Source: Narcine bancroftii (taxonomy: Eukaryota). From it: a stretch of DNA of 64,000 nt. This document shows, piece after piece, positions 1,697 through 61,600 of the stretch. The translations under genes were made by a program, and so were the position numbers. The stretch is from NCBI RefSeq assembly GCF_036971445.1, contig NC_091471.1, positions 163,866,001 through 163,930,000 of the forward strand, written 5' to 3'. Below the pieces are notes generated by a model. It saw nothing but the letters and a program-made list of their open reading frames with translations, was not told the origin of the DNA and did not search any database. Position 1 is the first letter of the stretch. Each line of letters opens with the position of its first letter.

Positions 1697-2409
1697 GGAC
1701 TCATCATTGGAGATGTGATTTCAGTGCTCAAGTTGAACTTCTGATGCCATGTTTCAAGGTTGCCAAATGTATGTCATTTGCAAGTTGTCACCTTTTCTTC
1801 CTCGTGGGAACGATGAACTATTCTCCCATTAGTCAACTCGTTCTTTCATTTGTTTAAATAACACAATCTTAATTAATCAGAAATATTACTAGGGTATCAA
1901 ATTTTCATCACAATTAACTGAACCCCCTATTATTTTTCCAGCAATCTTCATTGAGTTGAATTATTGAAATAAACAGAGCAATTGGGGTTCTGGAAATTAT
2001 TATCTAGGTTTGCTACCTTAAGTTGTTGCCAGAAATTCTTCCCTGTTTGAATACCTACAGATAAGTTCAGAGAGAAGTTAATCACAGTAGGTATTCCACT
2101 TTGTACTAGATTGCAATACAATTGATTTTATCACATGATTATTCATTTTTTTAATTATTTGGCAGGTTATGTAAATGATCTATATCCTTTGAACATTGTT
2201 AAGTAAAATGTGTGTCAAGTTGCTCTTGTAAAGTGACAAGTGACTTTATGGTGTTGGAATTATATTATTCATTTCAGTCATGTTTCTCAAGATTACATGA
2301 TAATAAATATCTTTCAATGGTGTGTAGACATTGGGAATGGTGACCTGCATCAGACAGGAACATTTTACAGTGTTAAAATTTGAACCTGCTATTTGTCTTA
2401 ACATTACAG

Positions 2410-2433
2410 AAGAGCTGTCGATCACTCATAGAA
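2410..2433 (+). CDS. Candidate 24-nt host microexon (unidentified gene)
   Basis: tttgtcttaacattacag|AAGAGCTGTCGATCACTCATAGAA|gtaagt: AG acceptor, consensus GTAAGT donor, length divisible by 3, in apparently non-repeat DNA. Confidence 0.35.
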
Positions 2434-2554
2434 GTAAGTCGAGCAATTTGGTACAAATTGATCCATTACTCTTTATTCCTTTCTCACCAATCTTCTTCTA
2501 AGTGGAGATAAGAAACTACTTTTAGTGATGAGAATGGGAGAATTTGAATTTCTA

Positions 2555-2897
2555 GCAGCACTGAAGCACCACAGGACTGTGTTCTTAGCCCCTTGCTCTA
2601 CTCACTTTACACCACAGACATTGTGGCCAGGTACATTAACACCATCTATAAATTTGTCAACGATACCTTGCTAGTGGTATTGTAAAGGTTTTGCATGAAC
2701 TGCTATGCCAAGCGTTCCAGTCTTAGGAGTCTTGGAGAATATCTTCTGGTCCCAACACACTAACGGCATCATGAAGAAAGCACATCAGTGCCTATACTTC
2801 CTCAGGAGTTTGCAGAGGTTTGGTATGACATCAGAAACCTTAGCAAATTTTTACAGATGAGTGATGGAAAGTATGCTGACCAGCTGCATCATGGGGA
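2555..2897 (+). mobile_element. Rex1-type LINE fragment with internal deletion
   Basis: APQDCVLSPLLYSLYT motif and aagaaagcacatcagtgcctatacttcctcaggagtttg, similar to the copies at 262 and 4212. Confidence 0.75.
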
Positions 2898-3047
2898 TGT
2901 GACGGCCCCTCACAGCCCCCTCGAGGTGTGTCACAAAATGAAAGACGAACACGGCGATCCAGCAGGCTGCGTGAGGCCCATAGCGTTGCCCTCCAGTTGG
3001 CCACAACTAAAGCAGCATAACTGGCGTATCAAGGAAATGTGATCTCA
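2898..3047 (+). mobile_element. Partial LTR (5' half), same family as the solo LTR at 20154
   Basis: Starts TGTG. Shares tcacaaaatgaa, gatccagcaggctgc, tgaggccca and tgccctcca with 20154-20300. Confidence 0.7.
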
Positions 3048-3967
3048 TATATGTACCCTTACAAAATAATCTGAAATGTTGATGTAGTGTTTCAGAGCAC
3101 TTCATAGACAATTAAATAACTTTGTTCCACTGTAAATGTAGTTAACTATCAGCATTCAGTAGGCAATTTGTTTCATGGAATTATAAAATCTTTACCAATG
3201 GAAAGGGCCAATTTGACCCATCAAAGTAAGTGCCAGTTTTATGTTGGAGTAATCCAATTAGTGCTAATATTTGGCTCTTCCTCTGAAGCACTGAAAATAT
3301 TTTTTCTCCAAGTACTTTTGCACTTTCGTTTTGAAACCTATGACTGAATCAGCATACAGAAACTGCCAAGGAACATAGATAAAATAAGCAGGCAGGTTAT
3401 TTGTTGTTAGGCATTGTTTGATGACTGAAAATTGGACAGAAGACAGAAAAAAATGCCACAGCTCATTTGCATACAGTGGTGAGGGATCTCAGTGCCTGCT
3501 GGAAGAGGTTGATAAGACCCAAGTTTAACGTTTCATTAAAGACTTACTACCAGCAGTTGGATTGGACCCAAAATACTTTTATAGCTCTCGGTAGAAAAGA
3601 AGGTTAGGTTGTTCCATTTTCAGAAGATCTTTGGTTGATAGGTTTCTAGAGATCGGGAGTCAATATTAAGTATAAGTTCACATGACTAGAAGAAAACAGA
3701 GGGAAAAGTGTGGTTAATCAGGTTCCAAGATGGAAGAGGAGTGATTACCTTCATTGGAGTCATGAAGTATTTAATTTGAGACAAATAAAAGCAGTGTGGT
3801 CAGAGCAGAATGGATCTAAGGAAGGAATTCTAGGAAATAAGAGCTGAACATGCACAAAGGCTTTGGACTTCAAAAGGAAGAGATTAGGATTAATTTGTGA
3901 TTGTTTATACTGTATTTAGAATATTAGAGAGATGTTAAGGTCTTAGACTCATTTATAAACAAAGATA

Positions 3968-5410
3968 ATAAAAAAACATAAATAGGAGCAGGAGGAGGCC
4001 ATCTGGGCTCATCAAGCCTGTTTCTATTTAATAAGATCATGGGTGCTTTGGCTGTGTATTCAGCTCCAATTACCAAACTGTTCCCCCATTCATCAAAAAT
4101 CTATCTATCAGTGTCTGAAAAAAAAACAATGAAGCAAAATCTACTTGGGCAGAGAGTTCCAAGGGTTTACCACTCTATAAGAAGCAGTTTCTCCTCATTT
4201 ACATCTTAAATCTCCAAGACCTGGGTCTCAAGACTTCACTGTGAAATTGGATCCTGGTCCCCTCAGCCCCCCGCTCTACTCACTTGACACTAACGACTGT
4301 GTGGCTCAGTACGACAACGACACCACCTGCAAATGTGCTGATGGTATCACGGCTGTGGGTTGAATAAAAAGGGGTGACGAGTCAGCAAACACGAGGGAGA
4401 TTGAAAACTTGGCTGAATGGCACACTAACAACAACCTCACACTCAATGTCACCAAAACCGATGAATTGATTGTTGACTTCAAGAAGGGAAAGTTAGATGT
4501 GAATGATCCAGGGATCAGTGGGAGAGAGGGTGAGCAAATTTAGGTTTTTGGGAGTCACTATTTCCGAGGATACACAATGCACAATGGCATTGTGAAGAAA
4601 GTATGTCAGCACCTCCATTTCCTCAGGAGTTTCTGAAGGTTTAGTATGACATCAGAAACCCTGGTATATTTCTACATATGTGTGGTGGAAATTGTGCTGA
4701 CCGGCTGCATCATAGTCTGGTATATCCTTGAACATAAAGCCCTGAAAAAGGTAGTGGACACATCCCAGATCGTCACAGGTAAATCCCTCCCCACTGTCGA
4801 GAACATATAGAGGGAATGGTGCTGTCGGAGAGAAGCAGCAATCATCAAAGTTCCACACCACCCAGCACATGCTTGTTCTCTCTGTTGCCACCAGGAGAGA
4901 GGTAGAGTTGACACAAGATTCACACCACCAACTTTAGAATCAGCTGCTGCTCCTCCACTATCAGCCCTTCAACAACAACTCAATCAGGGACTCATCTAAG
5001 GACTCTTACTTTTGCACTTTATTGTTTATTTCTCTCTGTATTGCACAGTCAGTTTGTTACATTTCTTTATTTGTTTACATGTGTCATTGAATAGTTGCTT
5101 TTGCACTATTAATAAGTGGTAATTCTGCCTGGCTCACAGGAAAAGGATCTCTGGGTTCTATGTGATATCATGTATGTACTCTGACAATAAATTTGAAATC
5201 GGAATCTGTAATATACTCCCCTGAATCCTGAGGCTCTGATCCTTCATTCTAGGCTCATCCAACAGTGGAAACAGCCTCCCTGCTTCAATCTTAACTATCC
5301 CTTTCATTATTTTATGTCTCTATATGATTTCTCCCCACCCTCTCATCCTTTTAAATGGCAATGTCCCAGGCCACTCTAACCCTTCTTGTGCTTACCCTTT
5401 CTTTCCAGAA
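3968..5410 (-). mobile_element. CR1-type LINE 3' end, split by a Rex1 insertion (4212-5206)
   Basis: Reverse CR1 tail (ataggagcaggaggaggccat...) stops at cttaaat and resumes at about 5210 (ctcccctgaatcctgagg). Confidence 0.7.
4212..5206 (+). mobile_element. Rex1-type LINE, 5'-truncated, nested in CR1
   Basis: LQDLGL..NWIL, LSPPLYSL and NNLTLNVTKTDELIVDF motifs; ends gacaataaatttgaaatc. Confidence 0.85.
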
Positions 5411-6150
5411 ACTTGGTAATAATCTAGGCTCATGGAAGTATTATGTAGGGTGGTATCTTGAAATTCTTTGCTGTTTAAAGTTGTCAGCAGAAACATATCA
5501 ATGATATACCAAATATATCAAATCATCTGCACCAGAGCAGATGAACCGAAGAAAACCTCATAGCTCTCAGAGGGTAAACATATTTAGCATGTTTTGTTTC
5601 CAGGAACCAATTTCTAGGTCAACAAATGAGGGTGTCTCAAGAAAAACATTGACTGCCCTCTTTTCTCCATGAGCGCTGCTTGACCTGTTGAGCCTTCTCT
5701 TTGTTTGCTCAGGATTCCAGCATCTTCAGTTCTTGTGACTGTCTCCACAGTATGGTAGCAGTCTGGAGCTGAGAACAAAACTTTGGAAGAGTTTCAGTTT
5801 ACATAAGTTGGAAGATTGCCAACGAGAGCAAAGGAGCAATTGAATGCAAAGAAAGTCATTGAGATGTTGTGGTGATGAATTATCAGTCATCATAAAGCAG
5901 AGTAAAGTGGAACAATAGCTTTTATGGAACAACTAAAGTTTAAGTGCACTCAAAAGTGGCTTCATGCTAAGCTCTCATTTTAGATTGCAATTGCGCAAAG
6001 GATGCAGTTATATTATAATTTTATAGTCGTCATAAATAATTTCAACATCATTTTTTATGTTGAATTTATGAAATTGAATTAAAGTAGTAACAGAGATTAT
6101 ATCTTGTGAATGTATTTAATTTAATACATTTTACTTCGTTTCAACTTCAG

Positions 6151-6197
6151 GTCGTAACCACCTAGGGCAAAGGCTGTGCTTACGCTATCCTATAAGT
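6151..6197 (+). CDS. Candidate host exon (unidentified gene)
   Basis: Pyrimidine tract ttttacttcgtttcaacttcag followed by a GC-richer segment. Reads either VVTT* (terminal exon) or xRNHLGQRLCLRYPIS ending at a gtatgt donor. Confidence 0.3.
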
Positions 6198-9100
6198 GTA
6201 TGTACCACATGAGTTGTAGTGTGCTGTATGAAATGTAGAGGAGCTATATAAATGCAGATCATTCCTCTTGCATCTCACACTCTGTGAGGTTGCATAGACT
6301 AAACTAACAACCTATGGTTGATTTTTTTTAAAGCAAAAATAAGCAAAATAGCTTAATTTGATGTCATACTGTCTCAGGGCTGAGAGGCAATAGATCTAGA
6401 AATACCCCAGGAGTTGTGGATGCACTGAGAATATGAGAAGCACTAATTGCTGTTTATTGGTAACAAGTGAAATGAATTTTGAAAACACTCAGCCAGTGAA
6501 ATGAACAATCTCCGATTGATATTCGTCATCTTGAAGTTTAAATTGTGGGTGTCATTGGACCTGTCAGTATTTATTGCCCATCCTTAATTAGACTTGAATA
6601 TAGGAGCAGTTAAGTATAAACCACAGGCTCTCTCTGCTTCTGATGAGCTTTCATTGAAATCCAACTAAGTAGAATGTGCAAATGCAATGAAATTCTTCCT
6701 TGCTGCAGCTACACAAGTACATGTACATAAAACACACTAACAGAAACGGATATATAAATTAAACTTAGCGCTATGCACCAAGAGTGGAAAAAATATTTAA
6801 GTGGAAAAACATGATATTGCGATAGTATACCCAGATCTATGGTGGTCCTGAAATAGTGTGATGGTTAGGGTAGTACTGGGGAAACAGTCACACCCCTAAC
6901 AATTGTACTGGAAAACATGAGCAGGTCCCATTACTTGCATTTGGCTCATATCCTTCCTATCTATTAAAAAATAGTTGATCAAATAACAGAGAGGGAACCC
7001 AGAAATATCAGCCAAGAGTGTTACGACAGATCATGGTGATTTAAGGAATAAGGATGTCACTGTGGACTTAAATTAGGTACAGGGTATGAATTGCAATAAC
7101 TGAAATTTGCATCAGAGCTTTAGCCTGGACTACTTTTGAAGTGAGAGATCTGAGTATGGACACACGCACCCTTTCTCTCAATGCAGTCGTGTTTCACCTT
7201 GATGAGCACAAAATGAACCCCTAACAAAACTCTAATCGACATGAATAAAATATATGCATAAAATAATTAACAATTGCCCACTGCAATTATTCTTCGTCTT
7301 AATGAGCATAAAATGTCAGCAAACTGGGTTGGTGCCAACTATAATGAAATCTCTCTCTATGGGTCTCATTTACTCCCTCTCTTCTTTCATTCCTCTAATT
7401 TTTGCTATTTGTAATTTATGCAATTGAAATTATGCCCTTTCACCACTTTTGTATTCCCCACCAACCAAAAGTGACTTGTCTTAGGTAGAATGTTATTATC
7501 AATGTCAGGTGATGAATATTAACCTACATGGTGCCACAGCACTGGAATGGTGTTGCCCACTTTGACTGAAGGCTCTGACCATAGTAGAACCATACTGTGA
7601 CAGATGTACTTGGCTCCTTTGAACTTAGGCAAAGTTGGACTGCCCACAATACTTTGCATAGTGACCGGGAATTTAGATCCAAATCTTACTGGGAAGTTCA
7701 GCAAAGTCTTGAGATAGGAAACTCCCTTTAAAAGGTCTTGAACATCCATTTGAAAGAACACCTGCTCAAGGTAGTTCTCCACTAATTGTTTGATTTATTA
7801 GGGAATTACTTCTATTTCTATCCTGCAGATTTTTATTTTGCCACCGATACAAAATTTCCTTTTCATTCACTCTATCAAGCATGTTAAATATAATTGTTAG
7901 TTCACAAATATTGTGAATTCAAAAAATGATTTGCTGTAAAATGCTTTTTAACAACTTTAACACATGCAAAATGGTCAACAAGCATGTTCTTTTTTTATTT
8001 CACTGCACTTTATTTTGCAGACACCTTATTCAGACTTAAAGCAGAAATAGAATATTGGAAGTTTATTGCACAAAAGGGGACCGTTTAACCTATTTTATCT
8101 TTTGCTTGCTTGCTGTGAGAAGAATGAAAACTAATGTCAGAACTCTATTCTTTCCCCATGGTTATTCACTATTATCTTTTGCTTAATAGAGTTTTCCAAT
8201 TTTCCCTTAGATGTTATAATAGCTTCTATCTTTGACTATTTCTGGTGGTTAAACATTCTTGGATCTAGCAAAAACAATTTCATAAGTCCTTCTCCTAACT
8301 CAGTAACAAATTCAAAATCCTGAATCTTCATGCCTGCCTGCCATCCAGAGGAAACCATCATTCACTATTCACTCTCAAAACACTTAGTCAATTGAAAAAA
8401 AATCTGTTAAATCTCTTCTTATCATTCTCTGGTCTAGTGGCACATTGAGTTCAGCACCACAAATTAACATTGGAGGCCTTGTTTAATTTAAAAAAAAAGA
8501 GTTCAAGAAGTTGAAGCCAGAAGTTTTGCTGGATTGCTCTGAGACTAAGTTTATCTAATATGTCTTTTTAAATAGATTAATAATAGCCCATCTTAATCCC
8601 AGTCTCATTTAGAATTAGCTGGTTGTGTGATAAAAATTGGGAATTGAGGATAATGACTGGTGGTGAGGGAAGTTTCTTTTCAATTTCTATCCCTGCAACA
8701 CCTTCTAGGAAGCAGGGGACCGCACAATCAGGGAGAGCATGGGTTACTCAGGTGGGATCTGGAGCCACAGAGACAGCTCTCATCGGGATGATGACTGAAG
8801 GTACCGAGTGGCTGTTTATGCCAGATCTGCATCCACTCGCCTACGTCCCAGCAGTCACTGGAGTGGCAAGAATCTGCCTAGAGTGAATCTGATTTGCCCG
8901 CTATGTGAAAATCCAAGAAACACAATTTGTTCCTTGTCATGATTATTTTGTATTTACTATGTGGTTTACTGTGAATTTTTAAAACCCAGAGTGGCAACTT
9001 GCAAAAGACAAAATGAAGCTTTTCACTGTTCTTCAGCACACCTGATAACAAACAATAAATTTGTGGATTTCAAGGATTTCAATCACTGCACCCATTGTCT

Positions 9101-15752: not shown

Positions 15753-17990
15753 AAATTTAAAAAAAATTCCAACCAACAGCCTTTGCAGGGGAAGCATAAG
15801 ACAAACTTAAAAGGATCGGGAGATACCTACAAGTTAATTGGAAGACAATCAGGAAAAGAATTTAAAGTTGAATCGAACAACGATGGTACGGGAACAGATC
15901 AGTGTTTGAAAGGCCAGCAATAGAGCCAATTAATCCAAATAATTTATGATTCAGGAAATGAAGCATTCCCAGTTCGAATCGCAAAACCTTCCTCATTTGC
16001 GGAATTGACATCCTTGTTATGCATCACATTACTTGCATTATTCATAGTTACATGGCTATTTTACACAATCACAAATCTGAAGATCCAAAACACTGTTCAA
16101 AAAGTTTAAAAAATATTGAAGGAAAAGGCATTCACATTTTACATTAGATATCCAAATGATTCAGTGACTGTTTTATTTAGTATCTCTCTCTATCCATATA
16201 ATTACCACAACATTAATTTGAAAGCTGTGAGAAAAAATAGCAGGGTCGGTTTCGATATACTTAACTAATCATTAGCTAAATATCAGATTAAAATGCCACA
16301 GATGCCTCAGATGTCTGCAGTTAGAAAACTAGCAGATTAATAATGAAATTCCTTCATTGCCAAGGAGAGACAATCATTGTTTACCCAGTTACAGCTGCAG
16401 GTGATCACAGGTCACACATAATTTCTCTCATGCCATTCAAGCTCTGTTGGAGAAATAAGAGGTTTAACTCCTGCAACCATTGAACATAAAGTCATATAAC
16501 TAAAAGCCCATCTCATCTGAGCTTCTTGCCAGAGAATTTTTTTGAAGCCAGGTGGAAGTTCTGCATTCATTGTCAAAGGCAATAATAATAATCTCATGGA
16601 CTAGTTCATTGAAGGTAATAAGCTATCAGAGTTGCAGATGTCTGTGTTCAACTAATTTATATAGAATGGGGAACAGTTAGTAATTGATGGAAATGTTATG
16701 TTAAGATTTTCTTGTCTTGGCAAATGACACATCTGTACCTGAACCCACACTGCCTTCTCTTGCAGTGTTGTGTCCATATCCATTTGGGCATTCAACAATT
16801 AGTAAAAGTGACAGTTCTTGTGTCATCAGATGGAATTGGTTCAGGGCTGAATGTTGGAGCAAGGAAAGCTGCTATCAGTATCTGATCTGGCTCATACCAC
16901 ATCACGATGGTTGACTATTAAACTACTTGATGATCCTACAAGTCAAGCTTAAGGTGGTGCATCTTCATTAACTGGTGTCAGACAATAATTCCAAATGTAC
17001 CAACATGGCCATTTCTCAATAAAGTTCATAACCTTTTCTCTGGACACAGTCAGATTGAAGCAGATGCCCAAAGCAGGTATGACTTGGCTCAACCATAGCA
17101 GCAGAGCATGTAAATTGATGAGAACGTTCATTAGCTGAAATAGTTCATACCTTTTTCTCTTCTGAAGGGCTGATACCCTTTCTATCTATTTGTAGCACTG
17201 AGAAAACCAGGGCAAGTAAATTTAAGATAATATCCAGAAGGGCCAGAGGAAACACAAGGAGGTTATTTTTAACTTAGCAAGATGTTATGACTGCAAATGT
17301 ATTGGCTGGAAGAGTGATGGAAGTGGGCTCAATATTCAGTGCCACATTGTAATTGGATTTCAAGTTGAAAAGCAAAATATTACTGGAATGTATTCCAACT
17401 GAAGTAAATAGATAATAGGGTCAAATACCCTTGTAGAAATATAAAAGAAAGGATAAAGATTTTTATTTACCATTTTTATTCACAGTTATAGAATGTATGA
17501 CAAAAATAAAGGATGCCGAAGCATGAAAATATAAAGCAGTGATCACATTTCTCCAAAAATCACAAGTTACACTGAAGAATTAAAGTTTGATTGGGTTATG
17601 ACATAATAATACAAAACATAAATGTGACCCATGGCAGATGTGATGACTTCGCCCTGAGAGATTGGTCATTTGAACAGAGGGAAGCGAGATGCCTCAGTGA
17701 CAGCCAATCAGAAAACAGCCTTTATATTTTTGTCAGTTATTATGGTATCCACCTGGAAGAGGGCTCTGTTAGCTATCTGCTATTTTATGAAACAACTTAA
17801 CATCCTTTTGCAAGTGGTATGAAATTGCTCCTTGTGTAACAGCATTGCAATTATTTCAGACCTTTTATGAAACATTTACACATGCTATCCTACGCAGTCA
17901 AATGGGACTAGTAAGGTCAGCATGGATAAGTTGGGATGAAAGAGTCTCTTTCCATGCCATAGATCTCAGAAATTCTTTCTTGATTAAGTA

Positions 17991-18033
17991 CAGTGAAACC
18001 CCAATTTAACGTGAAATTGGATATAATGTGATC
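17991..18033. mobile_element. Tigger/pogo-like MITE terminus (single TIR)
   Basis: ta|cagtgaaaccccaatttaacgtgaaattggatataatgtg resembles a TA-flanked Tigger-type terminus with its internal repeat. Confidence 0.4.
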
Positions 18034-18396
18034 CACTCCTGGATCCAGGGCTTGTGGCAGGCCAATGAGTGGTAGAGTAAAGCGCTGTGGAACTTCAGCA
18101 ACCATCTGCCCTCCAGGTCAGCCGGTGACGTGCACACCGGCGACCACTGGTTGAAGCAGAGAGCCGGGCTAGTCCAATCACAGCAGCTGGGGCAGGTGGC
18201 AGTTGCAGTACAGCAGGTTGTTGTCCAGGCTCAGCACGGACAAGGCTGTGAGCTGACAGCAGTGTGCTCTCTTCCAGCATGGCAAGTGCATGGCCAACTC
18301 CCTCAGCTTGTAGAGCTGCCAAAGATTCTGCTCCTGTGGAGGGAGATGACGCTGAGGTAACACAGTCAGAGTGTGGCCAGGTTGTGCAGGTAGGAT
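18033..18396 (-). pseudogene. Decayed fragment of a LINGO-family (LINGO3-like) LRR/LRRCT gene
   Basis: Across frameshifts the minus strand reads SYLHNLATL*LCYLSVISL / EQNLWQLYKLREL / [deletion] LAMLEESTLLSAHSL / SVLSLDNNLLYCNCHL / LCFNQWSPVCTSPADLEGRWLLKFHSALLYHSLACHKPWIQE. This matches the order and motifs of LINGO LRRs and LRRCT as I recall them (LEDQNFRRL, LSTLEESTFHS, NPLACDCRL, CxxP..CRKPKIRE). Confidence 0.8.
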
Positions 18397-20153
18397 TGGG
18401 ATTTGACTGAAATGGAGGTAAGGCAGGTTGAAATACTGCTGCTGATGCCGACCAATACTTAACTAAGCTTCACACACTGAGTAAGTCCTATGAATTTGGA
18501 TATTTGAAAAATTCACTCATTAATATAGTTTGCAGAATCTCAGATAATAGGCTCAGAAAAAGACTGTTGCATGAAAAAGTGTTTACACTGGAAAAGACTG
18601 CGAATATGTGTAGGGCAGCAAAGACCATAGGAGAACAAGCTAAAGAGCTGCACAAAATAGACAACAGTTAAGGAGCTGTACAGGATAGACACAACAGTGC
18701 ATGTGGTGAAAACAGAGGCAGTGAACCAAGAGTTTCCCAAGGCAACAACAAAGCAAAGAGGTAGGCTCAAATAGCAAATGCAGCAGCTATGAAGGTAAAC
18801 ATATTGCAAAGATGTGTCCTGCCTATGGAAAATCCTACTATACATGTGGGAAGAAAAATCATTTTGTAAAGTGCTGTAAAGCATAGACTACCAAGAGAAA
18901 GGTGCACACAATGGATGAAAATTATGGAGAAATTCTTTGTGGATTGCTGCTGTTAAAACAGAATGGATGACTGTGAATGAGACAGTAATCCCATTTAAGA
19001 TCAACACCAGAGCCCAGGTGAATCTATTATCTATGGACAATTAGAAGACCCTCACCATAAATACCATGATTTATCCTGTGAAATTAAAAGTGACAGGCTA
19101 CATTGGCGAGAATGTTTTAGTAAAAGGGGGCTGTCTAGTGATTTTCAAACACAAAGGGCAGCATTTAAAGTCTCACCTTCTGATTGTAGAAAGGAGAGTA
19201 CAGCCAATATTAGGTCTGAATGCATATGAAGAGTTCGATCTGGTGAAAATAATTTTCATAGTGGCTTCACAGATTGAAGATGAGCACATAACACTGATGG
19301 AATAATACATACATGTCCGAGGGGCTTATATATTTACCTGGTGTATAAAAGATCCACATAGATGAGACAGAGGACTCTGTTATTCATGCATGCAGGAAAG
19401 TTCAGTTTCCACCTAGAGACAAACTTAAACAAGAACTAGCACGCATGGAACAGATGAAAGTCATCCATAAAATTGATGAACCTACAGTTAGGGCCAGCAC
19501 ACTGGTCATCATCCAAAAGAAAAATGCTGCATTGGGTATATGTCTGGACCCAAGAGATCTCAATAAAGCCATCAAGTAAGAGCATTTTAAATTGCCGACA
19601 CAGGAGGAAATGGTCCAAGTTTGCAGGTGCCAAGTGGTTTAGAAAGATCAATATGTCCATTGGGGTTTTGACAGATGAAGCTCGATGAGGCAAGTTTGAG
19701 AATGTGCACTTTCAATACTCCCCAACAAGATACCACTATCTTCGATTACCATATGTGATCTCATCTACACCAGAAGTCTCCATAAAATCATCCACATGAT
19801 CTTTGAAAGTATACCTGGAGTTGAGACCATGATGAATGGCATAATTTTATGGGAGTCCACCAAGAATGAACATGATACATGACAAAGGCAAGTGCCTGAC
19901 ATGACACAGAATGTCAATTTGAAATTAAATAAAGAGAAATGTGAGTTTGGCGTTAAAACATTGACCTTCATAGGAGATGTTGTATCTGAACATGGAGTGA
20001 AGCCTGATCCAAGAAAGACATCAACCATTAGGGATTTTGCGAGGCCCCAAACAAAGAGGAGGTGAGACATTTCTTGGTCAGGGTGACCTACCTGGTTAAG
20101 TTCATCTCTCATCTATTGACTATGTCAGAACCACTTAGGTCACTCCCTGAGTG

Positions 20154-20462
20154 TGTGGTGGCCCTTCGCAGCTCCCCCAGAGGGCCTCACAAAATGAAGG
20201 ATGAACGTGATCCAGCAGGCTGCATGAGGCCCACAGTGCTGCCCTCCAATTGGACACAACCAAAAGAGCTTAACTGGCCTATCGGAAAGTGGATCACAAA
20301 CATACCAATCAGTGCTCAGAGGCTTTGACCAGGCCCCTCAGCTTGAGAATAAAAGCAGGGCTATGAGCCCAATAAAGCTCAGTGTTAACTACACTCAACT
20401 GGGTTTGTGTCATTCTTTCTGGGAACAGCATGTTCTTTCTGAGCTAACCTGCATGCCACTAT
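20154..20462 (+). mobile_element. Solo LTR inserted in Gypsy pol
   Basis: Starts tgtggtggc and ends near gccacta, with CCAAT and aataaa inside. It interrupts pol between SEPLRSL and LKKILTEEPVL. Homologous to 2898-3047. The 3' boundary is approximate. Confidence 0.7.
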
Positions 20463-21716
20463 AACTTCTCCTGTGCTACAGGCTCCACATAGCCATAGCT
20501 TATAGCAGCTAGCTTCAAATGCATCCAGTCACACAAGCAAGAAGAGTGCTTCTAGGCTCTCAAAAAAATCCTAACAGAAGAGCCTGTACTAATATTTTAT
20601 GATCCGATAGGTGCACCAGGATCTGAGCTGATGTATCCCAACATGGCCTTGGAGCAGTACTACTGCTGCAGCATGAGGACACATGGCAACCTGTGGCCTG
20701 TGCATCAAGGGCTTTAACAAGTGCATAAGCCAACTCTGCACAGATGGAGAATGAGTTTCTTGCCAGAACTTATGCTTGCAAAATGATCCATCAATAAATT
20801 TATGGACATGCTTTTGAAGTGGAGACAGACCATAAACCACTGGTCTCAATTATGTCCAAACCACTGAATGACTGTCCCATGAGAGAACAGTGTATATTGA
20901 TAAGGCTGGAGAAATACGATGTGAAAATGATCTACATGTCAGAAAAAATACATGTTTGCAGCTGATGCACTGTCTCGAGCACTTGACAAAAAAGAAAAGA
21001 GTGACCAAGAGGTTAATGTAGAAATACAGGACTCTGTTGACATGACTATCACCTCACTTCCAGTGGATAGATCAAAGCAGATCAGGAAAGCAACAGAGAA
21101 AGATAAAACCATGAAAGAGCTCAAAGATACAATGCAGTAAGGATGACCAGTAGCTAAGAATGAACGTCCAATGGGTATTTGGAATTACTGGGCATGCAGA
21201 GATGAACGGTCAGTTGTGAAAGATATGGACTTCAAAGGGAACAGATTTGTTATTCCAGTGTATCTACGCAAGGAAATGCTCCAGAAGATACACAAAGGAC
21301 ATCTTGGTGAGGAAAAATGCAAATATCGAGCTCAAGACGAGATGTACTGGCCAAGAATGAACCAAGACATAAGAAAGACCACTGTTTCATGCAAAATTTG
21401 CCTTCCCATTATCTAATGGCCTAGCAGAGAGTTCTGTGAAAGTGGTGAAAAGCCTCATGAAGAAAATACATGATGGCTGAGAGGATTTCCACAGAAAGAC
21501 ACTACATCTAATGCAACAAGTACAAGCAGTAGACCGGTGGAGACAGACTGCAGTCCAAAAGGACTGTTAAATCATCTCAGGGACTGATTGAAAGCTGCTG
21601 AGTGGAAAGAGACTGGCCACAGAATGTGGATACTTTTGTTATGTAGATATAGTATTGAGTTTGTGTTTTTGTTTTTTTTTAAGTGGAAAGATGTGTTATT
21701 ATGCGTCTAAATAAGA

Positions 21717-24457: not shown

Positions 24458-24603
24458 NNNNNNNNNNNNNNNNNNNNNNNNNNNNNNNNNNNNNNNNNNN
24501 NNNNNNNNNNNNNNNNNNNNNNNNNNNNNNNNNNNNNNNNNNNNNNNNNNNNNNNNNNNNNNNNNNNNNNNNNNNNNNNNNNNNNNNNNNNNNNNNNNNN
24601 NNN
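24458..24603. other. Assembly gap (146 N)
   Basis: Run of N characters. Confidence 1.
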
Positions 24604-32869: not shown

Positions 32870-33780
32870 CAGGGGTGGAGCCAGGTTCTAATGTTAGGGG
32901 GAGCGAGCACATAAAAAAAGGTCACATGACTTCTGTTCATTCAATATTAGAGCTTACTGCATCAATTAGAACCAAATTTAAATTATGCGCACAGCAGTGC
33001 TTAAAGAGTGCATTTGGAGCAACTTCCCTAATCTTTGTTTCGAGACATGTCACTCGATATGGAGCTTGCTCCATTGTAAGACTGACTGCAACGCGTAGTT
33101 ATTGACAGTCCTAAGTGGCCCACATCCATTCGAGCGCTTTCATCCCTAACGTCGAAGTACTCGAGATGGCAGAGGTCGACAGCATCGAGTCCACGCTGCT
33201 GAAGATCCAGCTGCGCTGGATGGGTCACGTCTCCAGAATGGAGGACCATCGCCTTCCCAAGATCGTGTTATATGGCGAGCTCTCCACTGGCCACCGTGAT
33301 AGAGGTGCACCAAAGAAAAGGTACAAGGACTGCCTAAAGAAATCTCTTGGTGCCTGCCACATTGACCACCGCCAGTGGGCTGATAACGCCTCAAACCGTG
33401 CATCTTGGCGCCTCACAGTTTGGCGGGCAGCAACCTCCTTTGAAGAAGACCGCAGAGCCCACCTCACTGACAAAAGGCAAAGGAGGAAAAACCCAACACC
33501 CAACCCCAACCAACCAATTTTCCCCTGCAACCGCTGCAACCGTGTCTGCCTGTCCCGCATCGGACTTGTCAGCCACAAATGAGCCTGCAGCTGATGTGGA
33601 CTTTTTACCCCCTCCATAAATCTTCGTCCGCGAAGCCAAGCCAAAGAAGAGAAGAAGAAGTGGCCCACCAGCACATCACAGGAGACTGAGCAGTGAGCAC
33701 ACAGTTCAAAAAGCCACCACTTCTGAAAAATATGCTCCATTCCCCCTGCAACCCCCCACCACCACTTAGCTATGCCACTG
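32870..33780. mobile_element. Putative hAT-type MITE hosting the RTE insertion
   Basis: Imperfect inverted termini caggggtggagccagg and cttagctatgccactg. Confidence 0.45.
33124..33657 (+). mobile_element. Young 5'-truncated RTE (BovB-like) LINE
   Basis: Open frame QLRWMGHVSRMEDHRLPKIVLYGEL..GAPKKRYKDCLK..CNRCNRVC..GLVSH, a (gaa)n tail, and a perfect 11-bp TSD aagtggcccac (33113-33123 / 33658-33668). Confidence 0.95.
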
Positions 33781-39924: not shown

Positions 39925-42900
39925 TTGCTCCATGCACCATGGACCGAGGGGTGGTTGGTTGCAGGGTGCCCTGCATGTGCCAGATCCCAGATGGAAACAG
40001 TGTCCTGTCACCCATCCTGGTACTCTACGTAGGCTTTTTTGGGGGTTGGTATGGAGGAGGTGAACTTTCTAGACCGGGGGCCAGTCTTGTAGTGCCTGAC
40101 GTGCCTCCGAAGCAGTATGGGCCCTGGGTTCATCAGCCAGGATGGTAATGTTGTTCCCAATGCTGACTTCCCGGGGAAGGAAAAGACCCTTTCAGGTGGT
40201 GTGGCATTCCTTCTTTCTACATGTCCATTCCCCGTGGTCTTGCTCATGGCTAAGCCCTTCTCCAAGAGCTCCTTGCTCATGAATGAGGATCCCCGGGTCA
40301 CTATGAATGTAGCAGGGGTAGCCAAACAGAGCAAAGATGCCACACAGTGCCTTTATGACATGGCTGTGGTCATGTTCAAGCAGGGGATGGCAAAGTGGAG
40401 ATGGGAGTACTTGTCTGAAATGTTGAGGAAATACACATTGCTGTTTGTGAACAGGAGGGGTCCCTTAAAGTCCATACTCAACCGCTTGAAGGGATGGATG
40501 GTTTTGATGAGGTGGGTTTTGTCTGGCCGGTAGAACTGGGGTTTACATTCAACACAGACTGGGCAGTTCTGAGTCAACTCCCTGATGTCTTCGACAAAGT
40601 AGGGGAGGTTATGGGCTCTGACGAAGTGGTAGAGCCTGGTGACGCCAAGGTGACAGAGGTTGATGTGATGGGCTTGGAGGTGGTTCAAATGAATGTTGGT
40701 GCATGTCCCCCTGGACAGTGCATCGAAAGGCTCATTGACCTTCCTGGGCCGGTACAAGATCTTGTAGTTGTAGGTGAATAGCCTAATTCTCCACCTCAGG
40801 CAGGATCTTGTCATTCTTGATTTTTTTCTCTGCTGTTTGTTATTCCACATAAAAGTGACTGCACGTTGGTCAGTCAGCAGGGTGAATGGTTTTCCGGCCA
40901 GGTAATGTCTCCAGTTACACACCACTTCCACTATGACCTTGGCCTCCTTTTCATGGCTATGTGCCAAAGTTCGGGGCCCTGGAGGGTTTGGGAGAAGATT
41001 ACCAAGGGCCTGACCACCTGGTTGAGCGTGGCAGCCAGGACGAAGTCGGACGCATTATTTTCCATTGGAAAGTGATGGATTCATCCACAGCACGCATCAA
41101 CATTTTGGTGATGTCACCCTTGATGCGTGTGAATGCCATTTGGGCTTATGCTGACAGGGAAAAAGTGGTCAATTTCACCAGGGGACAGGCTTTGTCTGTG
41201 TATTTGGGGACCTATTGGGCACAATAAGAAAAGAAGACCAAGCACATTTTCAGGAGCTTGAGGATCTGGGGCAAAGGGAGTTCCAACAGGGGCACATGCA
41301 GTCAGTGTCTGGGGCAATCTTGCCATTCTCCACCACACAGCCCAGGATGCCCAGCCATAAGAGCTAATGATGCACCTCCTTTGGTTATAGGTCAGATTGG
41401 GGCTTTTGGCCACCTGGAGAAACTCGTGGAGGTTGGCATCATGGCCTAGTGGTCATGGCCGCAGATGGTCACCTTGTCCAAGTCACATTGTCCCTCTCTC
41501 TTTGGAAGATGGAGACCCCACTGGTGACCCCAAAGGGGTCTCAGAGGAAGTGGTAGAGGCAGCCAACTGCTGCGAAGGCAGTATATGGGCTGTCCTCCAG
41601 CCGGATGGGCAGTTGATGGTACACCGACTTGAGGTCAATGGTTTAGAAGACCTGGTACTGGGCAATCTCATTTACCATGTTGGTGATGGCAGGAAAGTGG
41701 CTAGGCATACAGCTGGGTGAAGCGGATTATGGTCTGACTATAATCGATGACCATGTGGCATTTCTCCCTTTACAACCATCGCTTGAACTCTCCAGGTAAG
41801 GGTGCTGGGCTCAATGATCCCCTCTGCTGGAAGCTGTTTGACTTCTGTGTTGATGAAGGCTCTATCCCCGGGGCTGTATCACCTGCTCTTGGTGGCAACA
41901 GGCTTGCAGTTGGGGGTGAGGTTCTTAAACAGGGACAGCAGTGGAACCCAGAGGGTAGAGAGGCTGCAGGTCATGTTTGGAGAGGGTTGGTGGCTTAAGA
42001 GTTTGGTGAGACTGACCATGAGGGGCGGATGTGGGCTGTCCATCAGTATCCAGACGCTCTTTAGCTGGCACTGGAAGACCAGTCCCAGTATGACTGGCGC
42101 ACAAAGGTAAGGAATGATCAGGAGTCTAAAGTTCTTATATTCCATCCCTTGCACAGTCAGGGACATGCTACAGCAGCCACAGATCTCAGCCAAGAGAGAT
42201 TTGGAGGCCAAGAAGACCTTACATTGTACTGTGAGGGAGTAGCATTGTATAGTACCCTGGCCGATGAAGTTCTCAGTGCTTCCTGTGTTGAATAAGCAGC
42301 TTGCGGTGTAGCCGTTTACCTTGATGGTCATCATGACCTTGGCCAGTTGATTTGGGCTATCTTGATCAAGGATGATGGAGGCCAGAGTCTGTTAGCTGCC
42401 CGAGTCACTGCTGTATAGGTTCGGGGGTGCCTGCCAAGATGGTAGCTCCATATTACTATGCAGGGCTGTCCTTCACCACCGGAAGTGATGCCAGAACTGG
42501 TGCTGCCCTGGCTTGCCATCTCCAGTTGTTTCTCACAACCGGAAGTTACGCCAAACGTGGAGCTGGAAATGGTGTGGTCCAAGATGTCAGTGGCTGGTGT
42601 CTACACGTGGCACTGCTGGAGGAAGGTTGGGACCTACATACCTTCCTGTAGTTTCTCTTATTTCCGCAGGTGGAGCACATTTTGGTCACGCTGCCTTCTA
42701 GGGATGTTTCGTGTCCACAGAAGTAGCACTTCAGGTGCTCGATGGTGATGACAGTGATGTGGGACCCTGCATCCCAAGATGGTGGTGCCCACATTTCCCG
42801 AGGAGAATGCTTCGGCATTCTGTTGCACTTTCTCGAGCAATTTTGCCAATTTCACAACCTCCTGCAGGCTCTGATCACCTTTTTCAAACAGTCTCTGTCT

Positions 42901-52979: not shown

Positions 52980-54089
52980 TGTTTCATCTTGCATTCATAT
53001 GTGTGAGTTCTTAGACAACAAATGGATTAAGGAAAATGTTCTTTACTTTAAAGATGATATAAACAGCTCCATTAGGCATGCTATGAGGATGTAAGTCTCC
53101 ATTATAGGGCTTATATACTGCAGTGACCTGCTCTGTGTGTCAACGCCCTGCTGGCAGCCAAGTCTAATCAAATGGTAAGGAATTGCTAGTTGCATTGCAA
53201 CTGTGGTCATTATCATTATAAAAATCACTGGTTTATATGATGTGAAATGATACAATGCCTTTATTTTCATTTAAGACCAGACTGTAAAACAGAACACAGT
53301 AATAAACAAAATAACATTCCTCTAAACCATAATGCTGTCAATACATCATGAGATTACACAAAAACGATGTCGACAACACAAGACTAAGCCATTACTACAT
53401 CAGGCAAAACAAGGAGAAAAACAAACTACACGCGACTGAAACAGACTTTTACAGAGCTACATACTGAATAAAAATACACAGTGCAAACAACACAGCAAAA
53501 GATGAGAAAAACAGCTATACAATAGTCACAGCAGAGACAAGTTACATTTTTGTAGCCCTAGATTTAAAAAAATCTAGTAACTTGAAGTGAAGAACAACCA
53601 CACTGTTTACATGTCTATACAGGTCCACAAACTTTTGCCCAGTAGCGAAAAAGAGACCCAATGACCACCTTGCTGGCCCCATCATTTCCCTTAGGGCCCC
53701 ACTGTCCAAGACAGCACAGCTTCCCAAACATCTGGGCCCAGCATCCATCATGGCTGCTCTAGGCTCCCCGACACTTCCACCACAAAACACACAGACCTTC
53801 AGCCAGGTGCACGACACAGTCCACTCCAGCACACCTCTGCAAAGCATGCCACAGCGTCTCCATCTCGGCCACTAGCAGTAAACAACATCAAAGTCTGGAG
53901 GCCTTATCCCCACAAAAGAGGACCGCGCACACAGCAGACCAGGCTGAGCAGTTCCGCGGCTTTCTTCTTTAGTTCTGTACTTTACTTCGTGGTTCACACA
54001 TTTCCACAGCTCCACATCTACATAGTGCTCTGGCGTCCAATGTTCACCAATTAAGAATTGTTGCACGACACCTTACTTAACCATTGTGT

Positions 54090-54638
54090 TCTTTCTTTGG
54101 CTTGGCTTCGTGGATGAAGATTTATGGAGGGGTAATGTCCACATCAGCTGCAGGCTCGTTTGTGGCTGACAAGTCTGATGCGGGACAGGCAGACACGGTT
54201 GCAGCGGTTGCAAGGGAAAATTGGTTGGTTGGGGCTGGGTGTTGGGTTTTTCCTCCTTTGTCTTTTGTCAGTGAGGTGGGCTCTGCGGTCTTCTTCAAAG
54301 GAGATTGCTGCCCGCCAAACTGTGAGGCGCCAAGATGCACGGTTTGAAGCGATATCAGCCCACTGGTGGTGGTCAATGTGGCAGGCACTAAGAGATTTCT
54401 TTAGGCAGTCCTTGTACCTCTTCTTTGGTGCACCTCTGTCTCGGTGGCCAGTGGAGAGCTCGCCATATAACACAATCTTGGGAAGGTGATGGTCTTCCAC
54501 TCTGGAGACGTGACCTACCCAATGCAGTTGGATCTTCAGCAGCGTGGATTCTATGCTGTCGGCCTCTGCCATCTCGAGTACTTCGATGTTGGTGATGAAG
54601 TCGCTCCAATGAATGTTGAGGATGGAGCGGAGACAACA
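54090..54638 (-). mobile_element. 5'-truncated RTE LINE, same family as 33124
   Basis: Nearly identical protein (QLHWVGHVSRVEDHHLPKIVLYGEL...); 7-bp TSD attgtgt (54083-54089 / 54639-54645). Confidence 0.95.
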
Positions 54639-58600: not shown

Positions 58601-61600
58601 GCTCATGGCTGAAGATACAACTTTGAGGACCCTGAGCACTTTTATCAAGAGCGGTTTGCCTGACAAGCAGCGCAGGCTACCACCTGAAGTGAACCCTACT
58701 TCCCATTCGGGGATAAATTATTCATCGGTGACTGTGGTGATACACCACTAGCCTACTGCAGGGGGTGACCTGTGTACCTGCAGGAAGAGCACTGGAGGAC
58801 AAGACAACACCTGGCCGGCTGTCAATCAGCCAACCTGAATGGACCAAGCCCCACCCAGTCAGCTGCCAATCATCCACCGGGATATAAGCCACATCCGGCA
58901 CCTCGAGGTCAGTCACATGGAGCCAGCACAGCTAACCACAGCTAACTCCAGCAGGGACTTTAAGTGGAACCAGCCTGTTGATCAGTCTTTAAGTCTTGTG
59001 TCTGCTTTCCGTATGACAGCGCACCACAATTTATTCCACTTAAAATTTTAAGCTGCTATGGAATAGCTCCTAAGTGCCAAGAGACTCAAAGTCAACCCAC
59101 ATCACCTAAAAGCGCAAGCATGCTTCGAAATCTGGAGGCACATGGTTGAACCAATCATCGAGTCACATGCCAACGTCCTAGACTCCGACAGGGAAAAGCT
59201 CATCCTGCTCCGCTTGAAGTTGGGTCCCTGAACCTTCCAGGCCCTCAAGGAATGCACTGAGTACTCGAGGTGATGAAAACCCTGGAAACTATGTATAAAC
59301 CTCCAATGAATGTGGTCTTTGCCAGGTACCTTATAAGTATTCATGTCCAGCAGCCCGGAGAGACAGCCGAGTCTAACCTGGGAGCCCTGCGTGAGTTTGC
59401 CCGACCATGCATGGCAGAACCTGGGGTGACCAAAAAGGAGGTCGAAAGGTTGATCAGGGAAACATACGTCCAAGGTCTGTGCTTGAGAACCATAAGGCAA
59501 AATCTGATGAAGGACAATATTTACTCCCTGGCCAAAATTGCGAAGTAGTCCAAGCCCTGGAGGCAGCAGTCCTACAAACCAAAGCCTTTGACTCCAGTCT
59601 CCCCCAGGTCTCGTTGTGGACAGCACAGACTGCAGCTGTGGTCCAAAACCAGGTGGTGGATGAGAGCATAGCTGCCGCGGGTGCCCCACGTCCTTGTAAA
59701 TACTGGAGGTCCTGATGTGGGTCTGATCGACAGTCGCGTCGAAACTGCCCAGCCGGGAATCAATTCTACTCAAAATGCGGCAAGAAAGGACACTATGCCA
59801 AGGTATCCCTTTCTAAGCCCACCGGCAGCTCAGCAGCCCTCTACGATCAACACCTCCCCTCCCTCCTCGTCCCAGCCACATGCGATTGCCGGGCAGCTCC
59901 ATTGCCCCCGCAGCTACTTTTGGCCTCCCCAGCCTCGGCAGCCCTACTTCCAGCCTCGCTGGCAATGATCACCATGTGCTCACCATGCATCCAGACCAGC
60001 CCCCGGCCATACCAGCGCCACCCCACTAAGACGCCACATCCGCGGACTACAATTACGTCACTTCCGCATCACAGAGTGATGTCAATTCCGCTACCCACGA
60101 CGACATCACCGGCACAGACAGACAACGGCATAACATCACTTCCTCCAGTGCAGCCAAAAAGAAAGGCCAGCCGTGCTGCCACCACGCACCCCCATGTGGA
60201 GCAGCCATATTGCGCTGGGCGGGCGCAGACACCACAGCAACCCAGGGCCTCCTAGGCCTACACGAGCACGGATGACGATGTGCTCAACATAGGCAGTGAC
60301 CAGGCCGCCCTCCTGAAGCACCCCACACCTGCGGATTCTGCCGATCGCTACCCACTGCACCCCACGCCTATGGAGAGTGTCACCGGCCAACAGTCACCCC
60401 TCTCGTCGCTCCCCACGCTTGCAGAGGACAACATCGGCCGCAACTCGCCTTCACCGTCAGGGAACTGCATCTCAGACCTTGAAATGGTCCTAGCAGCCAC
60501 AAGGCTGACCAGAGACATCCCTCACAGCCTCGGGTGCTCCATGATGGACGTCTAGATCAACGGGCAGCTAACAAAGTGCCTATTCAACAGTGACAGCACC
60601 GAGAGCTTTAATCACCCAAATGTGGCCCGCTCTCTGAAACTCAAAATCCACCCCACCACCTTCTTTATCACCTTCGCCGCCCAGGACCGAACCATTAACA
60701 CCCTCGGGTGCTGCTCTGCTGATATGACTGTGATGAAGGATACATACACCGGGTCATCCCCAAACTCTGCGCCCCAGTCCTCCTGGGCTTAGACTTTCAA
60801 TGTCACCTGCAGAGCATCACCCTCACCTTCAGGGGGTCCTACCCCCACTCAAGCTCCACAATACTCCGTCCAACCAGACCCGGCCAACCTGCGGCCTCTT
60901 CGCATCACCCCTTATGCCCTCTTTTCACATCTCACACCAGGCTGCAAGCCAATAGCTACCAGATGTAGGCACTATTGCACAGCAGATGGAGACTTTATCA
61001 AGGCAGAGGTGCAGCAGCTTCTGGTGGAAGGTGTCTTAGAGCCCAGCAACAGCCCATGGAGAGCCCAAATCTTGGTGGTCAAAGGGGCCAGTAAGCCGAG
61101 GATGGTCATAGATTACAGTCAGACCATCAACTGGTACACCCAACTGGATGCCTACCCCTTACCAAGGATAGCTGACATGGTCAATAAGATAGCCCGCTAC
61201 AGGGTCTTCTCCACAACTGACCTGAAGTCAGCCTATCACCAACTCCCCATCCACCCGTGGGACAAGCCCTACACTGGCTTCGAGGTGGATGGGCACCTCC
61301 AGTTTCGCTGAGTTCCATTTGGGGTCACGAACGGGGTCTCTATCTTGCAGTGGGAGATGAATCGCATGGTAGACCGGCACAAACTAAAAGCGACCGTCCC
61401 TTACCTGGATAATGTCACTATCTATGGCCATGACCAGCAGAACCATGATGCCAACCTGGAGAAATTTGTCTGGACAGCCGATGAGCTGAAGCTCATGTAC
61501 AATAAAGAGAAGTACATGTTCAGCACCACCCGCCTCACCATCCTGAGGTAAATCGTGGCACATGGTGTCATCAGCCCGGATCCAGAACGGATGCACCTAT

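What the first reader, a model, noticed from the sequence alone, without database searches (positions are those of the whole stretch)
18033..18396. Relic of a LINGO-family neural LRR gene in a transposon field
Seen: a GC-rich island whose minus strand, stitched across frameshifts and stops, gives LRR repeats plus a complete LRRCT (LDNNLLYCNCHL...VCTSPADLEG...FHSALLYHSLACHKPWIQE), with an internal deletion of several LRRs. Known: LINGO1-4 are LRR-Ig-TM proteins encoded largely by one long exon. From memory the N-terminal part resembles LINGO3, while the FHS motif resembles LINGO2. Inference: a pseudogenised LINGO paralogue, possibly an ohnologue lost in mammals, or a displaced gene fragment. 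No single ORF in the track reveals it.
Basis: partly seen in the sequence, partly recalled or inferred. Interest (0 to 1): 0.72.

Follow-up and report, generated by a model that had tools for sequence, protein, structure and literature searches.

The report
Jumping DNA carrying LINGO3 exon scraps
This is not a lost nerve gene: it is one broken copy of a small cut-and-paste transposon that carries stitched pieces of the intact host gene LINGO3, sits at 80 or more places in a cartilaginous-fish genome, and is decaying like junk DNA, a plant-style gene capture that is rarely reported at this scale in vertebrates.

Summary
The stretch is one copy of a multicopy non-autonomous pogo/Tigger-type DNA transposon (Pack-TIR). 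80 of 101 non-redundant loci fetched carry the same LINGO pieces. TA follows 47 of 59 right and precedes 48 of 60 left inverted repeats, against 6% background. The donor is an intact LINGO3 gene 134 Mb away on the same contig; subfamily consensuses are 92-98% identical to it. The 'internal deletion' is shared across the family, so it predates amplification. Three nested deletion subfamilies spread separately. Copies evolve neutrally (nonsynonymous/synonymous ratio 1.07). Decayed transposase elements with matching ends are in the genome. Two other organisms show the same junctions, one at far greater depth. The window copy has lost its left end against a Gypsy-like relic. The scan had already noted this family on other DNA (e1-8619217, e1-9849383). 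Published multicopy animal Pack-TIRs number four in 100 genomes, the example with three copies (PMC8277862).

The parts
17989..17990 (.). TA target-site dinucleotide
   Evidence: Sequence; TA at 47 of 59 right ends in the family
17991..18032 (-). Right end of the Pack element: terminal inverted repeat (CAGTGAAACCCC on the + strand) plus subterminal repeat. Corresponds to the end of the transposase element that lies upstream of its ORF
   Evidence: Aligns to ends of transposase-bearing copies above 200 shuffles in 5 of 7 comparisons, e.g. 38/45 and 33/40 identities; orientation
18033..18286 (-). Captured LINGO3 CDS 997-1245 (last LRRs, LRRCT, start of the linker to the Ig domain). Carries the 4-base insertion typical of subfamily B and a private 1-base insertion
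   Evidence: net +4 in 16 of 21 B copies, 1 of 28 A, 0 of 20 C
18287..18297 (-). Family-wide deletion junction CDS 691|1001 (5-base microhomology), with an 11-base extra relative to the B consensus
18294..18423 (-). Captured LINGO3 CDS 564-691 (about two LRRs), with a 2-base insertion
18423..18447 (-). Short remnants of captured LINGO3 CDS 273-284 and 313-322; the element breaks off here, and about 100 bases of the left end with its inverted repeat are missing
   Evidence: left end not found in the window or 10 kb on either side
18448..21413 (+). Neighbouring decayed Gypsy-like gag-pol relic that abuts the truncated element (not part of it)
   Evidence: Pfam Integrase_H2C2 E 1.5e-13 and RT_RNaseH E 0.007 (below cut-off) in 2 of 6 pieces; 4 of 6 had no hit. 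'Gypsy-like' rests on domain order and recall

Best explanation
The stretch is a truncated, neutrally decaying copy of a non-autonomous pogo/Tigger-type DNA transposon whose interior is a patchwork of the coding exon of the host's intact LINGO3 gene, and which was likely spread by a transposase acting in trans. Shown: inverted repeats, TA target sites, at least 80 dispersed copies, the donor gene, three subfamilies, neutral decay, and decayed transposase elements with matching ends. Inferred: (1) A break inside a Tigger element was likely repaired by template switching onto the GC-rich LINGO3 exon, taking in about CDS 264-1361. (2) Microhomology-guided skips, during capture or soon after, removed 323-564, 692-1000 and 1310-1346 before amplification. 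(3) The transposase of the partner family would recognise the retained ends and copy the element. Further deletions gave subfamilies A (about 650 bp), B (about 545 bp, this copy) and C (about 510 bp), each of which spread again. (4) The burst is likely as old as, or older than, the split from organism C. (5) A later deletion likely removed this copy's left end together with the start of the neighbouring retroelement.
For: Copy number: 42 matches at 41 places to the window piece, one of them the donor; 80 of 101 non-redundant loci fetched carry LINGO3 pieces, on 14 contigs. Ends: TA at 48 of 60 left and 47 of 59 right ends with at most 2 TIR mismatches, both in 29 of 44, background 6%; flanks beyond TA are unconserved. 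Donor: open 665-codon frame, best PDB hit LINGO1 E 1e-179. It groups with named LINGO3 proteins at SH-aLRT 100, apart from the four other paralogues (quick tree; names). Consensus A is 93-96% identical to the donor, against 67% over 324 bases for the next paralogue. Junction microhomologies are 1, 5, 3 and 3 bases, P about 0.003 against random pairs in the same CDS. Neutrality: observed/expected synonymous 527/548, nonsynonymous 892/871, stops 44/47.5; 46 of 80 copies have stops, 58 of 80 frameshifts, 9 of 80 neither in the segments scored. Partner: 1.6-1.8 kb elements with HTH_Tnp_Tc5 (E 5e-11) and DDE_1 (E 2e-18); their ends align with the Pack ends. Other organisms: contigs of runs X10 and X9 share deletion joints with X1, and X10 shows the same transposon-side loose ends.
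Against: This copy itself keeps only one inverted repeat, so its membership rests on alignment to the family. No intact transposase was seen among the 10 partner copies fetched, and the partner ends differ slightly from the Pack ends (CAGTGG versus CAGTGA), so the link is by likeness, not by test. No Tigger remnant lies within about 15 kb of the donor, so the capture site is not recovered. The captured part lies inside one exon, so a DNA template cannot be told from an mRNA template. One of the four junctions has only 1 base of microhomology. The right-end alignments beat the shuffles in only 15 of 21 comparisons.
Confidence: 0.93

Rival explanations
1. A unitary pseudogene of a LINGO paralogue or ohnologue that mammals lost.
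For: Seen alone, the window piece looks like a decayed LRR-LRRCT exon with stops and frameshifts. The genome does hold five intact LINGO-like genes, two of them divergent.
Against: At least 80 copies with the same breakpoints, transposon ends and TA sites, and 92-98% consensus identity to the intact LINGO3.
Confidence: 0.01
2. Processed retrocopies of LINGO3 mRNA, or a SINE-like RNA element, spread by a LINE enzyme.
For: The captured part has no intron, and the window is rich in retroelement relics.
Against: Both ends are inverted repeats with TA, not a poly(A) tail with variable target duplications. The pieces are internal CDS, not anchored at the 3' end. An mRNA could still have been the template of the single capture event.
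Confidence: 0.02
3. The family is transposon cargo, but some copies have been co-opted as exons, regulatory DNA or antisense RNA against LINGO3.
For: Contigs matching other copies of the element occur in runs guessed to be RNA (X5, X6), for example a 929-base contig with a subfamily C junction. 9 of 80 copies have neither stop nor frameshift in the segments scored.
Against: Pooled substitutions are neutral (ratio 1.07), and CpG sites have decayed by 34-38%. The family-wide junction and the B insertion break the LINGO frame. RNA status of the runs is only a guess, and contigs give no strand or level.
Confidence: 0.08
4. The element reached the other organisms by horizontal transfer and not by descent.
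For: Tigger elements are reported to move horizontally, including in Chondrichthyes (PMC9219625, passages). X10 contigs are mostly 90-99% alike to the donor and far deeper.
Against: The orthologous flank in X10 differs at 82 of 885 places, no more than this copy's distance from its master (K2P 0.10 without CpG sites), so descent suffices. Short contigs of a high-copy repeat lean towards the consensus.
Confidence: 0.07

Closest known systems
Multicopy Pack-TIRs of animals (Tan et al. 2021, PMC8277862; abstract, sections 7, 9, 14, term passages and a supplement term search seen)
   Same: Host sequence between the ends of one TIR element; distinct insertion sites; distance from the parent; GC-rich capture (captured span 67% GC); microhomology at breakpoints; TcMariner-class vehicle.
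   Different: Scale: at least 80 copies here, against four multicopy cases in 100 genomes, the frog example with three copies of a 5' UTR piece. The cargo is a deleted patchwork of protein-coding exon with nested subfamilies. It is too old and too rearranged for their filters (90% identity, 80-120% length). Their table lists 0 Pack-TIRs for elephant shark.
Tigger family of the pogo superfamily (PMC9219625; term passages seen)
   Same: TA target duplication, short TIRs, partner with HTH_Tnp_Tc5 and DDE_1 domains.
   Different: Non-autonomous and filled with host exon; the partner copies seen are 1.6-1.8 kb and broken. Placement in Tigger rather than another pogo family was not tested by a tree.
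Plant Pack-MULEs and Pack-TYPE elements (PMC8903248, search listing only; otherwise recalled); Turmoil-1 of C. elegans (PMC2572040, abstract only)
   Same: Non-autonomous DNA transposons carrying and multiplying coding fragments.
   Different: Vertebrate host and pogo-type vehicle; in Turmoil-1 the coding pieces lie within the inverted repeats, here between them.
LINGO3 (LRR-Ig-TM, one long coding exon)
   Same: It is the donor; the pieces map to LRRs and the LRRCT.
   Different: No signal peptide, Ig domain, TM helix or continuous frame; not a gene.

Membership tests
Pack-TIR (multicopy) | Non-TE sequence of 100-5000 bp between the two TIRs of one element | tested here: met
   44 copies with both TIRs at no more than 2 mismatches, mostly 460-660 bp. 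The window copy keeps only the right end
Pack-TIR (multicopy) | Unambiguous parent locus not itself flanked by the TE | tested here: met
   Consensus 92-98% to LINGO3 CDS; no hit of element ends or partner in 30 kb around the donor
Pack-TIR (multicopy) | Recurrent transposition: many unlinked sites, each with its own target duplication | tested here: met
   80 loci on 14 contigs; TA at both ends in 29 of 44; unrelated flanks. Empty orthologous sites were not tested
Pack-TIR (multicopy) | Tan et al. pipeline filters for young cases (90% identity, 80-120% of parent length) | tested here: not met
   Copy segments mostly 70-93% identical and internally deleted. These are detection filters, not the definition
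Pack-TIR (multicopy) | Microhomology at the TE-filler breakpoints | tested here: inconclusive
   Tested only for the four internal junctions (P about 0.003); the two capture junctions were not scored against a null
pogo/Tigger | TA target-site duplication | tested here: met
   48 of 60 left, 47 of 59 right, background 6%
pogo/Tigger | Short terminal inverted repeats shared with a transposase-coding element | tested here: met
   Left 82 bases align at about 85% with the partner consensus; right ends above shuffles in 15 of 21 comparisons
pogo/Tigger | Transposase with CENP-B-type HTH and DDE_1 domains | tested here: met
   In partner copies: HTH_Tnp_Tc5 in 3 of 5 pieces (2 above cut-off), DDE_1 in 1 of 5, 1 of 5 without hit
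pogo/Tigger | Catalytic-triad spacing and tree position within Tigger | not tested
   All 10 partner copies fetched are broken; no transposase tree was built
LINGO3 (donor identity) | Groups with named LINGO3 orthologues, apart from the other paralogues | tested here: met
   Quick IQ-TREE, SH-aLRT 100, no bootstrap; 15 of 120 listed hits used; no named LINGO1, 2 or 4 in the tree, the genome's own four paralogues served as the contrast
Unitary pseudogene | Single copy, with no functional counterpart in the genome | tested here: not met
   At least 80 copies; intact donor
Processed pseudogene or SINE | Poly(A) or repeat tail, variable target duplication, 3' anchoring | tested here: not met
   TIR and TA at both ends; internal CDS pieces only

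The most novel reading that the evidence does not exclude
This pogo/Tigger lineage of sharks and rays is a vertebrate counterpart of plant Pack-MULEs: it repeatedly captures GC-rich host exons and multiplies them to hundreds of copies, and transcribed LINGO3-bearing copies supply antisense or small RNAs that tune the neural LINGO3 gene, or serve as new exons.
Probability: 0.12. Interest if true: 0.75.

Novelty: new variant of a known kind. Interest (0 to 1): 0.45.

Why it matters
The published survey of animal Pack-TIRs concluded that capture is mostly single-copy and independent of transposition, with four small multicopy cases in 100 genomes (PMC8277862). This family shows the other regime in a vertebrate: one capture of coding exon, then repeated amplification through nested deletion derivatives to at least 80 copies, and likely several hundred in another species. 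Donor, partner, breakpoints and subfamily order are all recoverable, so the capture mechanism can be tested. Practically, such copies mimic lost gene paralogues and can mislead annotation and gene-loss studies in sharks and rays. No function is shown.

Tried and rejected
Pfam on three stop-free window pieces gave nothing. Search for the missing left end in the window and 10 kb on each side, and for Tigger remnants in 30 kb round the donor, found none. Long protein matches that seemed to span the deletion (C8:222.39 Mb, C8:199.31 Mb) proved to have the standard junction (L100, L101). The 'left TIR' that searches report for the window copy is a 3-mismatch chance hit in the neighbouring relic and was dropped by the 2-mismatch rule. 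The unweighted pN/pS of 0.63 was rejected as a transition-bias artefact; the mutation-matrix version gives 1.07. One search used wrong coordinates (400 bases of flank plus 130 of element); its hits served only as leads. The right-end comparison failed because the consensus end was not located; it was redone on single copies. Partner divergence (median 0.13) includes flank for short copies and is an overestimate. Orthology of this insertion is unresolved: the X10 flank contig stops at 17784, short of the insertion. Expression: no RNA holder listed; no listed piece of X5 or X6 matches the window copy closely, which shows nothing either way. No source was found for the cargo of a sister family among 20 loci fetched of 40 scored. 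Literature: no paper on this family in 8 searches; Repbase and Dfam could not be searched, so it may be catalogued there. Rows dropped: L007, L012 and L026 (insertions) and 8 copies with ambiguous signatures were left out of the subfamily alignments (69 of 80 used); 10 duplicate loci were removed before the count.

Full report
Observation. Pfam sees nothing in 3 of 3 stop-free pieces, so identity had to come from DNA.

Copy number. A search of the own genome (G000, 3.33 Gb) with 18020-18410 gave 42 matches with nearly the same extent, 68-83% identical apart from the window itself. Further searches with another copy, donor segments and the element's end added loci; each scored only 40 candidates, of 88-119 for the cargo queries. 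After removing duplicates, 80 of 101 fetched loci carry LINGO3 pieces; the 21 without came from end-only queries. They lie on 14 contigs. 80 is a floor.

Boundaries. Aligning 40 loci showed a sharp conserved block of about 570 bases ending in inverted repeats, with unrelated flanks. With at most 2 mismatches to the repeat, TA precedes 48 of 60 left ends and follows 47 of 59 right ends, both in 29 of 44, against 6% TA in flanks. TA duplication and short TIRs are the marks of Tigger elements (PMC9219625, passages).

Donor. One hit was an intact gene: a 665-codon open frame at G000:C8:298.45 Mb, 134 Mb from the window, with LRR, Ig and TM-like parts and LINGO1 as best solved structure (E 1e-179). 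Its nearest proteins named with a paralogue number are LINGO3. In a quick tree of 21 rows it sits inside the cartilaginous-fish LINGO3 group (SH-aLRT 99), and all LINGO3 rows form a clade (100) apart from the genome's four other LINGO-like genes (no bootstrap, 15 of 120 listed hits used). Subfamily consensuses match the donor CDS at 92-98%; the next paralogue reaches 67% over 324 bases. The FHS motif that suggested LINGO2 is FRG in the donor.

Anatomy and subfamilies. Copies are patchworks of donor CDS 264-322, 565-691, 1001-1309 and 1347-1361. Subfamily A (28 aligned) keeps the longest interior. B (21, with the window copy) ends at 1245 and has a net 4-base insertion in 16 of 21 copies, against 1 of 28 in A and 0 of 20 in C. 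C (20) lacks 1157-1257 but keeps the longer right junction. A and C each retain something the other lost, so both likely derive from a longer master; 4 copies combine an A-type interior with a C-type right junction. Microhomologies at the four internal junctions are 1, 5, 3 and 3 bases, P about 0.003 against random pairs from the same CDS. The 'internal deletion of several LRRs' is therefore a property of the master element.

Partner. The element's left 94 bases had 476 candidates. They include an 88-90-base minimal MITE, elements with other cargo, and elements with transposase remains. The last form a family of decayed 1.6-1.8 kb copies (441 candidates, 40 scored, 10 fetched) with HTH_Tnp_Tc5 and DDE_1 domains. 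Their ends align with both Pack ends (15 of 21 right-end comparisons above 200 shuffles). The LINGO3 cargo lies antisense to the transposase. Mobilisation in trans is inferred, not tested.

Decay and age. Copies differ from their subfamily consensus by a median K2P of 0.09-0.11 outside CpG sites, and at 34-38% of CpG sites; the window copy gives 0.10 and 43%. Against a mutation matrix from the data, synonymous changes are 527 observed to 548 expected, nonsynonymous 892 to 871, stops 44 to 47.5: no selection on the LINGO frame. 46 of 80 copies have stops, 58 frameshifts, 9 neither in the segments scored. No calendar age is given, since no rate was measured.

Other organisms. Contigs of four runs were laid on the donor. 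X1 may be the source of this genome and is not independent. X10 (organism C, another study) shows the 691|1001 and 322|565 joints and transposon-side loose ends at both capture points. X9 (organism B) shares two joints with X1. Summed depth over the captured pieces is about 2,000-8,000 in X10, against 7-12 for single-copy DNA, and up to about 440 against 3.5 in X1. The tool warns that depth is no copy number, so this is a hint of several hundred copies in organism C. The orthologous flank in X10 differs at 82 of 885 places, similar to this copy's distance from its master, so descent from a common ancestor suffices; the contig stops before the insertion point. Runs guessed to be RNA hold contigs from other copies, a weak hint of transcription.

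The window copy. It keeps TA, the right end and the cargo, but lacks about 100 bases of the left end, which were not found within the window or 10 kb either side. It abuts a decayed Gypsy-like gag-pol relic on the + strand. A deletion across the two neighbours is the simplest reading (inference).

Mechanism. Likely one template switch during repair of a break in a Tigger element, onto the GC-rich exon (67% GC), as proposed for multicopy Pack-TIRs (PMC8277862 section 9). Microhomology-guided skips and rounds of cut-and-paste amplification followed. DNA versus mRNA template cannot be told, as the cargo lies in one exon. No Tigger remnant was found near the donor.

Comparison and novelty. Tan et al. 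found 370 Pack-TIRs in 100 animal genomes, only four multicopy, the example with three copies. Their filters exclude old, rearranged cases. Their supplements list 0 for elephant shark and do not contain LINGO (12 files searched). Eight literature searches found no report of this family; repeat databases were not available. The scan's own notes describe the same family on another piece of this genome and in another genome, and similar Tigger captures of other genes; these are unchecked notes, read after my reading was fixed. Verdict: a known kind of event at an unusual scale, with no function shown. Interest 0.45.

Noticed in passing
L074, L076, L077, L136-L155 (e.g. G000:C17:103704315-103704772): Sister family with the same Tigger ends and a different cargo: a minisatellite plus a conserved 170-base piece, 275 candidates. 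Read on the reverse strand the piece seems to end in an exon-intron boundary (AG|GTAAGT, by eye). No source locus among 20 fetched.
   Followed up: partly
L059, L065, L067, L083, L084, L132; and L079, L133, L134: Two more groups with the same ends and interiors absent from the partner consensus; L059 has expanded a 26-base unit into a long tandem array.
   Followed up: no
L060, L063, L070, L071, L079: Minimal 88-90-base MITE made of the same left end closed by an inverted repeat, with TA sites.
   Followed up: no
L012 (G000:C1:352.226 Mb): A Pack copy in which 33 bases of the LINGO3 cargo have expanded into about 11 tandem units.
   Followed up: no
Runs X5 and X6 laid on window 17983-18039: Deep contigs (summed depth 430-600) carrying the Tigger right end joined to another interior, perhaps a MITE in an abundant transcript.
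   Followed up: no
L046 (donor), L049, L050: The donor LINGO3 is on a long branch (0.30) with a Gly-Ser-rich repeat before the TM helix. Two further intact LINGO-like genes 3.7 Mb apart on C11 are very divergent (42-44% identity).
   Followed up: partly
window 16900-17784: Single-copy stretch that one contig of organism C covers at about 90% identity; two CCAAT-like boxes near 17655-17715 by eye.
   Followed up: no
window 33122-33653 and 54089-54616; 58728-59029 and 63474-63772; 40381-41920 and 60931-62499: Repeat pairs within the window: an inverted pair at 92%, a direct pair at 90% that may be LTRs, and two related pol relics at 63%.
   Followed up: no
window 24458-24603: Run of 146 N; not relevant to the finding.
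   Followed up: no
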